NCBI GenBank assembly: GCA_027340875.1
Contig: DAIENX010000097.1
Coordinates: 1 to 23,145 of the forward strand
Length of the DNA: 23,145 nt
Direction of reading: 5' to 3'
Origin: Elusimicrobiota bacterium
Lineage (GTDB): Bacteria; Elusimicrobiota; Elusimicrobia; Elusimicrobiales; UBA9959
Shown piece by piece: positions 4,176-9,075 of this stretch. Positions within the stretch are counted from its first letter, which is position 1, and every line of letters begins with the position of its first letter. Under the pieces are notes generated by a model. That model was not told where the DNA came from, made no database searches, and saw nothing but the letters and a program-made list of their open reading frames with translations. Made by a program: the position numbers and the translations under genes.

Positions 4176-6113
4176 ATGCTCGAATACGTCTACATACTGC
4201 CGCTGTTGTGCTTCGCCGCCGCGGGCCTGATACTGGCCTTCGGCAAATGGTTCCCGGGCAAGGGCGCCTCGATAGGCATCGCCGTGGCCGGCTTCAACTT
4301 CGCCGTGGCGGCCACACTGTTCTTCAAGGCCCTGGGCGGCGGACTGCAGCTGCCGTACGAGCATTCTATCCCCTGGTTCAGCTTCGGCGAGCACCTGGCC
4401 ACGCTCGGCGTCTACGTGGACGGCCTGACCATCGCGATGCTGATAGTGGTTACCACCGTCAGCCTGCTGGTGCATATCTACTCGCTGGGTTACATGCACG
4501 GCGACCCGCGCTTCAAGCGCTTCTACTCCTATCTCTCTCTGTTCACCGCCTCGATGCTCGGCCTGACGATAACCAGCAGCATGATGGTGTTCTTCATGTG
4601 CTGGGAGCTGGTAGGCGTCTGCTCCTACCTGCTGATCGGCTTCTGGTTCGAGAAGCCTTCCGCCGCGTACGCCGGCAAGAAGGCCTTCATCACCACCAAG
4701 CTGGGCGACCTCGGCTTCCTGGTCGGCCTGCTGGCCCTGTTCTACTGCGCCGGCACCTTCGAGATCTCCAAGATCCTCGAGCTGGCCCACGCCAACGCCC
4801 TTCCGATAGCCGCGGCCGGCGGCGCCGCGATCCTGCTCTTCTTCGGCGCGGTCGGCAAGTCCGCGCAGTTCCCGCTGCTGATCTGGCTGCCGGACGCGAT
4901 GGAGGGCCCGTCCCCGGTCTCCGCGCTGATCCACGCCGCCACGATGGTCGCGGCCGGCGTCTACATGGTCGCCCGCCTGTACGCGGTCTACGCGCTGTCC
5001 CCCGCGGCGATGAACGTCGTCGCCTGGACCGGCGCGATAACCGCCTTCACCGCCGCTTCTATGGCGCTGACCTGCTTCGACCTTAAGCGCGTGCTCGCCT
5101 TCTCCACCGTCAGCCAGCTCGGCTACATGATGCTCGCGCTCGGCGCCGGCAGCTTCACGGCCGGCATGTTCCACCTGACCACGCACGCCTACTTCAAGGC
5201 GCTGCTGTTCCTCGCGGCCGGCTCGGTGCTGCACGCGGTGCACAGCAACGACATGCGCGAGATGGGCGGCCTGCGGCACAAGATGCCGGTAACCTATTTC
5301 ACGTTCCTAGCCGGCACGCTGGCGCTGGCCGGCATCCCGCCGTTCGCAGGCTTCTTCTCCAAGGACGAGGTCCTGGCCGGCGCGCTGGCCAGGAACCCGT
5401 ACCTGTTCCTGCTGGGCGCCGTGGCCGCCGCGATGACGGCCTTCTACATGGCCCGCGCGTTCATCATGACCTTCCACGGCAAGCCGCGCGACGCCCATAA
5501 GCACGACCACGCGCACGAGAACCCGGCCACGATGACCGTGCCGCTGATGTTCCTGTCGGTGCTGGCCCTGATCTCCGGCTGGGCGCTGGCCCACGGCGAA
5601 CTGTTCGAGCACCTGGTCAATTTCGAGGGCGCGCTGCCGTTCGAGCTGCACCACGTCTCGCACGGCACGGTGGCGCTGGTCTCCACGATAGTCGCGGTGG
5701 TCTCGATGGGCAGCGGCCTGTGGCTGTACCGCTTCAAGCCCGAGATCCCGGCCGCGCTCAGGGAGAAGTTCTCCTTCTTCGTGGACATGCTCGAGAAGCG
5801 CTACTGGCTGGACGCCTTCTTCCTGATGTGGGTGGACATCGGCGACTGGTTCAGCCGCTTCCTGTTCGTCTTCGATTTCGAGTTCCTCGACCAGATGGCC
5901 ATAGACGGCTGGGCCTGGCTGACGCTGAAGCTCGGCGCCGTCCAGGGCTGGATCGATACCTACATAGTCGACGCGACCGTGGACATGTTCGGCACGGTCT
6001 CGCTGGCCGGCGGCAGGCTCGCCCGCACGGTGCAGACCGGCTTCGTGCAGAACTACCTGCTTTTCGTGGCCGTCGCGGTCTCGATATTCGCGGCCATAGC
6101 TTTTTCGGGATAG
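4176..6113 (+). CDS. nuoL: NADH-quinone oxidoreductase subunit L (645 aa)
   Basis: Motifs YSLGYM, WELVGVCSYLLIGFW, GKSAQFPL..WLPDAMEGPSPVSALIHAATMV, THAYFKALLF, GFFSKD, QTG.VQNY. Confidence 0.97.
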   Translation: MLEYVYILPLLCFAAAGLILAFGKWFPGKGASIGIAVAGFNFAVAATLFFKALGGGLQLPYEHSIPWFSFGEHLATLGVYVDGLTIAMLIVVTTVSLLVHIYSLGYMHGDPRFKRFYSYLSLFTASMLGLTITSSMMVFFMCWELVGVCSYLLIGFWFEKPSAAYAGKKAFITTKLGDLGFLVGLLALFYCAGTFEISKILELAHANALPIAAAGGAAILLFFGAVGKSAQFPLLIWLPDAMEGPSPVSALIHAATMVAAGVYMVARLYAVYALSPAAMNVVAWTGAITAFTAASMALTCFDLKRVLAFSTVSQLGYMMLALGAGSFTAGMFHLTTHAYFKALLFLAAGSVLHAVHSNDMREMGGLRHKMPVTYFTFLAGTLALAGIPPFAGFFSKDEVLAGALARNPYLFLLGAVAAAMTAFYMARAFIMTFHGKPRDAHKHDHAHENPATMTVPLMFLSVLALISGWALAHGELFEHLVNFEGALPFELHHVSHGTVALVSTIVAVVSMGSGLWLYRFKPEIPAALREKFSFFVDMLEKRYWLDAFFLMWVDIGDWFSRFLFVFDFEFLDQMAIDGWAWLTLKLGAVQGWIDTYIVDATVDMFGTVSLAGGRLARTVQTGFVQNYLLFVAVAVSIFAAIAFSG

Positions 6114-6153
6114 CCGTCCGGCAGCTCCGGGCGGTATTGACTCGGTGAATATT

Positions 6154-6160
6154 CAGGAGA
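6154..6160 (+). promoter_or_regulatory. Shine-Dalgarno of nuoM
   Basis: CAGGAGA 8 nt upstream of ATG 6169. Confidence 0.6.
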
Positions 6161-6168
6161 ATTAAAAC

Positions 6169-7632
<1,464 letters not shown>

Positions 7633-7653: not shown

Positions 7654-9075
7654 ATGCTTAACATAGCCCTGATCAACCCCGAGATAATGCTGGCCCTGGC
7701 CGGGCTCTTCATACTGGTCATCGGGGCTTTCATCAGCGAGGAGCGCGCGAAGGTGCTTATGCACCTCGGCACCCTCTGCGTGACCGTGGTCCTGATGCTG
7801 GTCCTCTCGCAGCCGGCCGGCTACGGCATAGGCGCCATGTGGGTGGCCGACCCGGGCGCGCTGCTGTTCAAGTCCGTTATCCTGATATCGGCGGCGCTGA
7901 CGCTGCTGCTGTCGGTCAACTATCCAAATATCCCGGCGCGGCACGTCGGCACCTATACCGCCCTGCTGCTGTGGGCCAGCTGCGGCATGATGCTGCTGTC
8001 CGGCGCGGTGGACCTGGTCTACCTGCTGATAGCGCTGGAACTCATCAGCATCCCCTGCTTCATCCTGACCGGCTTCGAGCAGAAGAGCGAGAAGTCCTCC
8101 GAGGGCGCGCTTAAGTACTTCCTGATGGGCGGCCTCTCCACCGCGGTCACGGTGTTCGGCATCTCGATGTTCTACGGCGCCACCGGCGGCACCACGCTGC
8201 TGGCCGAGAGCGCCTCGGTCTCGCTGCACATGACCGACCCGGTCTACATCATCGGCATGCTGTTCGTGATGGTGGGCTTCGGCTTCAAGATCTCCATGGT
8301 GCCGTTCCACTTCTGGGCCCCCGATGCCTACGAGGGAGCTCCCACTCCGGTCACCGCCTACCTGTCGGTGGCCTCCAAGCTGGCCGCGCTGGGCGCGATG
8401 CTGCGCATCTTCACCTCGGTGGTGCCTCACTACGCCATCAACGCCTCGCTGGTGGTGGCCGTGCTGGCCGCGCTGACGATGACGCTCGGCAACCTGGCCG
8501 CGCTCTATCAGACCAACGTCAAGCGCCTGCTGGCCTATTCCTCCATCGCGCAGGCCGGCTACATGCTGATAGGCCTGGTGGTGGCCGACCCTATAGGCCG
8601 CGAGAGCGTCTTCTTCTACGCGTTGGCGTATCTCGCCACCAACATGGGAGCCTTCGCCGTGGCCATAGCCGTGGCCGGCAAGGCCGGCTCCTACGAGCTC
8701 GATATCTTCAACGGCCTGGCCAAGCGCTCGTTCGGCCTGGCCGTGGTGATGGTGATGTTCCTGCTTTCGCTGGCCGGCATACCGCCGCTGGCCGGCTTCG
8801 TGGCCAAGTTCTACGTCTTCGCCTCGGCCGTCAACTCGCAGCAGTACCTGTGGCTGGCGATAGTCGGCGTGGTGAACAGCGTGATCTCGGTCTACTACTA
8901 CATGGGCATAGCGCGCCGGATGTTCTTCGTCGAACCCGATACGGCGGAGGGCGTGGAGCACGACGTCTACGTCTCGGGCGTGATCTTCGTGACCTGCGCG
9001 GCCACGCTGCTGATGGGCATACTGCCCGGGCCGCTGATAGAAGCCGCCAAGTCCTGCGCCACCTTCCGGTTCTGA
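7654..9075 (+). CDS. nuoN: NADH-quinone oxidoreductase subunit N (473 aa)
   Basis: Motifs EGALKYF, GFKISMVPFHFWAPDAYEGAPTP, KRLLAYSSIAQAGY, SLAGIPPLAGFVAKF, SVYYY. Confidence 0.97.
   Translation: MLNIALINPEIMLALAGLFILVIGAFISEERAKVLMHLGTLCVTVVLMLVLSQPAGYGIGAMWVADPGALLFKSVILISAALTLLLSVNYPNIPARHVGTYTALLLWASCGMMLLSGAVDLVYLLIALELISIPCFILTGFEQKSEKSSEGALKYFLMGGLSTAVTVFGISMFYGATGGTTLLAESASVSLHMTDPVYIIGMLFVMVGFGFKISMVPFHFWAPDAYEGAPTPVTAYLSVASKLAALGAMLRIFTSVVPHYAINASLVVAVLAALTMTLGNLAALYQTNVKRLLAYSSIAQAGYMLIGLVVADPIGRESVFFYALAYLATNMGAFAVAIAVAGKAGSYELDIFNGLAKRSFGLAVVMVMFLLSLAGIPPLAGFVAKFYVFASAVNSQQYLWLAIVGVVNSVISVYYYMGIARRMFFVEPDTAEGVEHDVYVSGVIFVTCAATLLMGILPGPLIEAAKSCATFRF

What the first reader, a model, noticed from the sequence alone, without database searches (positions are those of the whole stretch)
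5802..6041. NuoL lateral helix lengthened by about 26 aa (2M-complex signature) although the operon has only one nuoM
Seen: there are 77 residues from YWLD (5802) to QTG (6033). The segment contains a tandem repeat offset by 27 aa (FLFVFDFEFLDQMAIDG / VQGWIDTYIVDATVDM). Known, from recalled sequences: the same interval is about 48-52 aa in E. coli NuoL and Thermus Nqo12. An insertion of about 26 aa in helix HL marks '2M' complex I homologues, where it spans an extra antiporter-like subunit. Here the order is simply L-M-N. Inference: the membrane arm may take a fourth antiporter subunit, either two copies of the single NuoM (or NuoN) or one encoded in trans. That would be a cryptic higher H+/e- pump, which fits a low-potential donor or reverse electron flow given the missing NuoEFG. 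Alternatively it is a relic after loss of the second nuoM.
Basis: partly seen in the sequence, partly recalled or inferred. Interest (0 to 1): 0.8.

Follow-up and report, generated by a model that had tools for sequence, protein, structure and literature searches.

The report
Long NuoL strap, one nuoM gene
The strap helix of this bacterium's second respiratory complex I is one pump-width longer than usual although the operon has only the usual three pump genes, a layout common across bacteria, and the middle pump (NuoM) is likely built in twice from its single gene, which would add a proton to each turnover.

Summary
Observation confirmed. NuoL spans 77 residues from YWLD to QTG, against 48 in E. 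coli and 53 in this genome's canonical NuoL. The extra is a tandem copy of the module that contacts NuoM in E. coli. The operon is an 11-subunit cluster (no nuoEFG) with one nuoM, and the assembly holds no orphan antiporter gene.

The layout is neither local nor a relic. In 142 junctions sampled without regard to helix length, long helices sat before L-M-N 45 times and L-M-M 3 times; short helices never preceded two nuoM. Spacings cluster near 52, 78, 104 and 130.

nuoM has a strong ribosome-binding site in 34 of 48 long-helix operons against 16 of 86 short ones (stronger in 33 of 38 same-genome pairs); nuoN does not differ. Only 5 independent contrasts underlie this, and it is not significant after that correction.

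Best reading (0.6, inferred): an L-M-M-N arm from one nuoM gene, coupling ferredoxin to menaquinone with a fifth proton. No structure or stoichiometry supports it. The mismatch is in print (Yu 2022) and this scan noted it on at least 8 other windows.

The parts
4176..6113 (+). nuoL, 645 aa
   Evidence: TIGR01974 591 bits, above cut-off
5802..5873 (+). Start of lateral helix HL (YWLD anchor; D546 corresponds to E. coli D542, 21 residues before the first module)
5874..5954 (+). HL module 1 (D567-I593, 27 aa; one residue longer and more diverged than the family's 26-aa unit)
   Evidence: invariant D567, D572; family profile
5955..6032 (+). HL module 2 (D594-V619, 26 aa)
   Evidence: invariant D594, V598, D599
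6033..6113 (+). QTG-x-VQNYL motif and last transmembrane helix (TM16), of the ordinary type
6114..6168 (+). 55-nt nuoL-nuoM spacer: small hairpin (6113-6135), then AGGAG (6155-6159) 9 nt before the nuoM ATG
   Evidence: sequence; folding (overall z -0.2, not unusual); duplex energy -7.4 kcal/mol; same motif in genus relatives
6169..7632 (+). nuoM, single copy, 487 aa; central charged axis intact (E138, K221, H228, H235, K252, H309, H335, E394)
   Evidence: TIGR01972 591 bits; alignment to E. coli NuoM
7654..9075 (+). nuoN, 473 aa
   Evidence: TIGR01770 398 bits
3..4165 (+). nuoC (cut by the contig start), nuoD, nuoH, nuoI, nuoJ, nuoK; no nuoEFG between D and H

Best explanation
This 11-subunit complex I has a lateral helix one 26-27-residue module longer than usual and a single nuoM gene, and it likely assembles as L-M-M-N, using that one gene product twice. 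Shown: the duplication, the single gene, the absence of an orphan partner in the assembly, and the wide spread of the layout. Inferred: each module docks on one NuoM, so helix length acts as a ruler for the number of NuoM copies; nuoM is uncoupled from nuoL and has its own strong ribosome-binding site so that it is made in excess. Further inferred: the fourth antiporter subunit moves a fifth proton when a low-potential donor (probably ferredoxin) reduces menaquinone. From recalled textbook potentials, ferredoxin to menaquinone gives about 0.7-0.85 eV per 2 electrons and NADH to menaquinone about 0.5 eV. Forward use is more likely than reverse in this genome, but direction is untested.
For: (1) The duplicated unit starts at the position of E. 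coli D563. Belevich 2011 (PMC3274701, abstract and passages) places P564-L565-N566 at the helix's contact with NuoM. Both copies keep the motif in 50 long-helix rows: D 89/100%, D 89/100%, G 81/85%, V 89/97%, N 83/79%. (2) Lengths are quantised. In the NuoM-centred sample, 137 measured spacings fall at 48-54 (87) or 76-82 (49, plus one degenerate tail, L178, set to 77 by eye), none at 55-75. Among 150 representatives under 50% identical to each other: 51-53 (31), 76-79 (69), 81-89 (5), 103-105 (6), 132 (1); 35 were not parsed and 3 (131, 138, 161) were mis-anchored. 26 residues of helix is about 39 A, one antiporter width (recalled geometry). Yu 2021 (PMC8165549, passages) states that HL is just long enough to span the number of antiporter subunits in MBH, MBS, Mrp and complex I. 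(3) All 7 L-M-M clusters seen have the long helix (4, 3); 0 of 87 short-helix junctions have two nuoM. (4) nuoM ribosome-binding site at or below -6.5 kcal/mol in 34 of 48 long one-nuoM operons against 16 of 86 short; nuoN control 20 of 44 against 23 of 58; the long operon's nuoM site is stronger in 33 of 38 same-genome pairs, 2 further pairs skipped; the direction is the same in all 6 phylum samples. In this genome: -7.4 with a 55-nt spacer here, -3.7 with a 3-nt spacer in the canonical operon. The metric ranks this genome's multi-copy ATP synthase genes (-10.8, -9.2, -5.6, -5.3) above the single-copy ones (-0.2, -1.7, -3.2) (subunit names inferred from order and one Pfam hit). Proportional synthesis is described as the rule in bacteria (PMC7195860, passages). 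(5) 34 of 34 long-helix clusters with D and H in view lack nuoEFG between them. The genome has futalosine-pathway genes, four ferredoxin-oxidoreductase-family genes and cytochrome bd.
Against: No structure, stoichiometry or proton count exists for this type. The ribosome-site contrast rests on 5 independent changes on the NuoM tree (same direction 2.6, opposite 0.4; sign test median p 0.5), so the pooled counts overstate it. The metric is imperfect: single-copy nuoK scores -10.3 here and -12.5 in the canonical operon, stronger than nuoM. In Bacteroidota-group genomes only 1 of 8 long operons has a strong site, and in two phylum samples nuoN's site is as strong as nuoM's. E. coli tolerates some 6-7-residue loop insertions in HL, and natural irregular insertions exist (L109, 21 aa; L268, about 50 aa with two hydrophobic segments), so HL can loop out. 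Spacings of 104 and 132 would imply 3-4 NuoM copies, which strains the energetics. In the window's lineage module 1 has drifted (the strict motif scan scores 0 modules) and NuoM has L at E. coli D246. In true 2M operons the second NuoM comes from a neighbouring subfamily, not from a recent duplication of the first. Helix class follows the NuoN tree (8 changes) as well as the NuoM tree (7) against 17 on the NuoL core, so linkage alone can explain that pattern.
Confidence: 0.6

Rival explanations
1. The arm is ordinary (L:M:N = 1:1:1). The extra module loops out, lies on the membrane surface, or shifts TM16 one step further towards NuoJ/K/A/H, as a stabiliser or a docking site for the unknown electron-input partner.
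For: Only three antiporter genes. E. coli tolerates some short HL insertions. Irregular natural insertions occur. One, two and three extra modules all occur, and the two-extra forms seen in context have one nuoM.
Against: A loop gives no reason for steps of 26 residues or for keeping the NuoM-contact motif in both copies. TM16 and its QTG motif are unchanged. It does not explain the nuoM-specific initiation signal.
Confidence: 0.2
2. The fourth slot is filled by an antiporter subunit encoded elsewhere (the canonical operon's NuoM or a Hyf/Ehr-like subunit).
For: This genome has a second NuoM (45% identical, C76) and two Hyf-like antiporter genes (C69). The assembly is 92% complete. 25 of 48 long-helix genomes have a second match to the NuoM family.
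Against: 23 of 48 have only one match (completeness not given), including one with two extra modules (G100). A single-contig genome (G158) has the layout and one match. Some close relatives show the long operon without a canonical one in their assemblies (G026, G035, G038, G040).
Confidence: 0.08
3. The extra width is taken by a second NuoN or by an unrelated accessory membrane protein.
For: Helix class follows the NuoN tree as well as the NuoM tree. nuoN also has longer spacers in long operons (median 10 vs 4 nt).
Against: The duplicated motif is the NuoM contact in E. coli. nuoN's ribosome site does not differ between classes. No extra antiporter-like gene is seen in the cluster in relatives; small accessory genes were not surveyed.
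Confidence: 0.08
4. Relic of a 2M ancestor that lost its second nuoM.
For: The first NuoM of the Chloroflexota 2M operons groups with the single NuoM of long-helix operons. Yu 2022 offers 'evolutionary transition' as one option.
Against: One-nuoM is the majority state (45 against 3; 65 against 4 of 80 loci) across many phyla at about 50% NuoM identity, with both modules conserved. Where the extra module was lost it was lost whole (L251, L254, L259, L261 at 51, nested in the long clade).
Confidence: 0.04

Closest known systems
Single-nuoM clusters with the NuoL insertion in 'Ca. Manganitrophaceae' (Complex_I_1 and _2; Yu, Chadwick, Lingappa, Leadbetter 2022, PMC9040806; section 10 and passages read, Fig. 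S2 not held)
   Same: About 26-residue HL insertion in clusters described as similar to canonical forms in gene content and order; left unexplained by the authors.
   Different: Here an Elusimicrobiota cluster without nuoEFG. The paper does not propose reuse of one NuoM in the text read, and reports no survey across phyla. The sequences were not compared.
2M complex I (Chadwick et al. 2018, ISME J 12:2668; not held, known only through passages of PMC9040806, PMC6606698, PMC7117926, PMC8004040, PMC12342949, PMC7419157)
   Same: Lengthened HL; often no N-module; proposed fifth proton. Thermoflexus 2M loci were recovered by the same HL motif (spacing 79) and their first NuoM groups with the long-helix clade.
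   Different: 2M is defined by a second nuoM gene, which is absent here. The original paper may already discuss one-nuoM relatives; I could not read it.
11-subunit complex I-like enzymes without NuoEFG, reported for groundwater Elusimicrobia (bioRxiv 10.1101/765248, passages)
   Same: ABCDHIJKLMN, no diaphorase module, hypothesised ferredoxin donor.
   Different: The passages read do not mention HL length or pump number.
MBH, MBS and Mrp (Yu et al. 2021, PMC8165549, passages)
   Same: HL length matches the number of antiporter subunits spanned.
   Different: There each subunit has its own gene.

Membership tests
Complex I / Nuo (11-subunit type) | NuoA-D, H-N core with L, M, N above family cut-offs | tested here: met
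   A and B on overlapping contig C31 and contiguous in relatives
Complex I / Nuo (11-subunit type) | No nuoEFG in the cluster | tested here: met
   D is followed directly by H; EFG lie in the separate canonical cluster on C76
2M complex I | About 26-residue insertion in NuoL helix HL | tested here: met
2M complex I | Second nuoM gene in the cluster | tested here: not met
   L-M-N in the window and in all 9 relatives with M and N in view, of 12 fetched
2M complex I | Four antiporter subunits in the assembled arm; five protons per turnover | not testable with these tools
   needs structure, stoichiometry and pumping assays
Long-HL single-nuoM clusters (Manganitrophaceae Complex_I_1/2 type) | HL insertion together with canonical L-M-N content | tested here: met
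Long-HL single-nuoM clusters (Manganitrophaceae Complex_I_1/2 type) | Common descent with the Manganitrophaceae insertion | not tested
   those sequences were not fetched
Green complex I / Mrp-type | MrpD-like subunits replacing NuoL | tested here: not met
   NuoL scores 591-615 bits on Nuo models against 317 or less on Mrp models

The most novel reading that the evidence does not exclude
A large share of bacterial complex I homologues set their pump number with a helix ruler: each 26-residue module in NuoL recruits one more copy of a self-stacking NuoM made from one gene, giving four-, five- and six-antiporter arms that gene counts miss. About a third of the operons sampled here (48 of 138 classified) would then pump more protons than annotated.
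Probability: 0.45. Interest if true: 0.85.

Novelty: new member of a known kind. Interest (0 to 1): 0.55.

Why it matters
If right, H+/e- stoichiometry of complex I cannot be read from gene content, and energy budgets for many Elusimicrobiota, Omnitrophota, Chloroflexota, Acidobacteriota and others need revising. It would also give a simple handle on the open question of how antiporter subunits couple: add or delete one module and count pumps and protons. The locus itself is an ordinary member of this widespread, noted but unexplained class.

Tried and rejected
Complex prediction of two NuoM copies with a 55-row alignment: no verdict (score 0.00); used neither for nor against. AlphaFold2 model of NuoL alone: HL predicted helical, but residues 567-645 have pLDDT below 50, so the path of the helix is uninformative; no fold search was run. 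RNA runs: no RNA holder listed. No promoter or terminator consensus at the nuoL-nuoM junction. Self-alignment of the repeat within the window: not above background. Search for NuoM columns shared by both large long-helix clades: 7 conservative hydrophobic differences, nothing interpretable. Chadwick 2018 is not held, so a prior statement of the reuse idea there cannot be excluded. Fig. S2 of Yu 2022 is not among the supplements held; those listed were not read. Searches for a published structure or a 'two copies of NuoM' proposal found none; solved-structure hits to the HL profile all had one module. Automatic helix calls were corrected by eye for 19 rows; 4 of 142 junctions stayed unresolved. 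The 80 loci were selected by a long-helix query (best 80 of 135), so they were not used for frequencies. NuoM-centred samples took at most the 30 best-scoring matches per phylum.

Full report
Locus. The window is contig C84 of a 2.8-Mb assembly (92% complete, 5.5% contaminated); close homologues are named Elusimicrobia. It begins inside a nuo cluster: C-D-H-I-J-K-L-M-N. nuoA and nuoB lie at the end of C31, which overlaps the window start at 95.5% identity, and relatives show ABCDHIJKLMN in one piece. The genome also has a canonical 14-gene cluster on C76 and a Hyf/Ehr-like cluster on C69. These three clusters account for all 8 antiporter-like genes found, so there is no orphan nuoM in the assembly.

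Observation. The YWLD-to-QTG spacing is 77, against 48 in E. coli and 53 in the C76 NuoL. The repeat cannot be shown from the window alone but is clear in the family: D567/D594 and D572/D599 are invariant in 21 homologues, and distant homologues show two near-perfect D-x3-[VI]-D-G-x-V-N-G units 26 apart. Solved chains carry one such unit. The unit starts 21 residues after the anchor aspartate, as E. coli D563 does after D542, and Belevich 2011 places P564-N566 at the helix's contact with NuoM.

How common. A scan with the helix motif returned 80 loci (best 80 of 135), all long: 65 L-M-N, 4 L-M-M (Thermoflexus), 9 with no nuoN seen after nuoM and 2 cut after nuoL. Four Anaerolineae/Chloroflexota loci have spacings of 104-105 with one nuoM. 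To avoid selecting on the helix, I sampled nuoM in six phylum-level draws: 142 nuoL-nuoM junctions, of which 87 short, 51 long and 4 unresolved. Long: 45 L-M-N, 3 L-M-M, 3 with no following gene seen. Short: none with two nuoM. No spacing fell between 55 and 75. The 150 best representatives of a profile search over 1.84 billion proteins gave the same ladder, up to 132 (35 unparsed, 3 mis-anchored). In 23 of 48 long-helix, one-nuoM genomes the NuoM family model matched once in the whole assembly, and one single-contig genome has the layout. All 34 long clusters with D and H in view lack nuoEFG there.

History. On the same 82 rows and equal column numbers, helix class needs 7 changes on the NuoM tree, 8 on NuoN and 17 on the NuoL core (quick trees, weakly resolved for NuoL). 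The helix therefore travels with the downstream M-N block, which either co-adaptation or simple linkage would give. A short-helix group nested in the long clade lost exactly one module, and the second NuoM of true 2M operons comes from a neighbouring subfamily.

Translation signal. If NuoM is needed twice, proportional synthesis predicts stronger initiation on nuoM. Here nuoM has a 55-nt spacer and AGGAG (-7.4 kcal/mol); the canonical nuoM of the same genome starts 3 nt after the nuoL stop with -3.7. In the unselected sample 34 of 48 long against 16 of 86 short operons have a strong site, nuoN does not differ (20 of 44, 23 of 58), and the long operon's site is stronger in 33 of 38 same-genome pairs. 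The metric orders this genome's ATP synthase genes by copy number. Against: only 5 independent contrasts exist on the tree and the sign test is not significant; nuoK, a single-copy subunit, scores higher than nuoM; and Shine-Dalgarno strength is a weak predictor of translation in general (recalled).

Mechanism. Most likely (0.6) the arm is L-M-M-N, with one HL module on each NuoM and TM16 in its usual place. The NuoM charged axis is intact, so both copies could pump. The genome has futalosine-type menaquinone genes, four ferredoxin-oxidoreductase-family genes and cytochrome bd, and keeps a separate NADH-type complex. A ferredoxin-to-menaquinone role with a fifth proton fits recalled potentials; donor, direction and proton count are all inferred. 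Rivals: an ordinary 1:1:1 arm with the module looped out or TM16 displaced (0.2), a partner in trans (0.08), a second NuoN or accessory protein (0.08), a relic (0.04).

Comparison. This is not a 2M complex by its defining gene content. It matches the one-nuoM clusters with the insertion that Yu et al. 2022 noted in Manganitrophaceae and left open. Chadwick 2018 could not be read. Six searches found no structure and no explicit proposal of NuoM reuse. This scan has recorded the same mismatch on at least 8 other windows; my reading was formed before that look-up, and those notes are not independent support.

Verdict. Real and conserved; a new member of a noted, unexplained and widespread kind. 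Added here: an unselected frequency estimate, the length ladder and a controlled but phylogenetically thin initiation signal. Interest 0.55; 0.85 if the ruler model holds.

Noticed in passing
window:1583-2863: NuoH is 426 aa; family models match only from about residue 90, leaving an N-terminal extension with a hydrophobic segment. Close relatives align over the full length.
   Followed up: no
L268 / L300 (G227:C9), 3' end of nuoL: About 50 residues with two hydrophobic segments are inserted between the two HL modules.
   Followed up: no
L102, L106, L108, L115; proteins P0039, P0045, P0064, P0066, P0070, P0115, P0178: NuoL with two extra modules (spacing 103-105) or three (132); the four loci have one nuoM.
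   Followed up: partly
L251, L254, L259, L261: Short-helix (51) operons nested inside the long-helix NuoM clade: loss of exactly one module.
   Followed up: partly
window:6865-6867 (NuoM L233): Leucine at the position of E. coli NuoM D246, which is aspartate in 56 of 67 long-helix rows; it coincides with a drifted module 1 in this lineage.
   Followed up: no
L037 (G036:C166), between nuoK and nuoL: 1.2-kb gap inside an otherwise compact operon; content not examined.
   Followed up: no
window:1-511 against contig C31 end: 95.5% identical overlap, suggesting two strains in the assembly.
   Followed up: partly
window:18608-22824: Two large ORFs (933 and 503 aa) with predicted-looking signal sequences at the contig end; the second resembles a CapA-type metallophosphoesterase (recalled, not tested).
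   Followed up: no
G000:C71:59507-60736: Heme-copper oxidase family match in an 801-aa frame, possibly a quinol nitric-oxide reductase (identity not tested).
   Followed up: no
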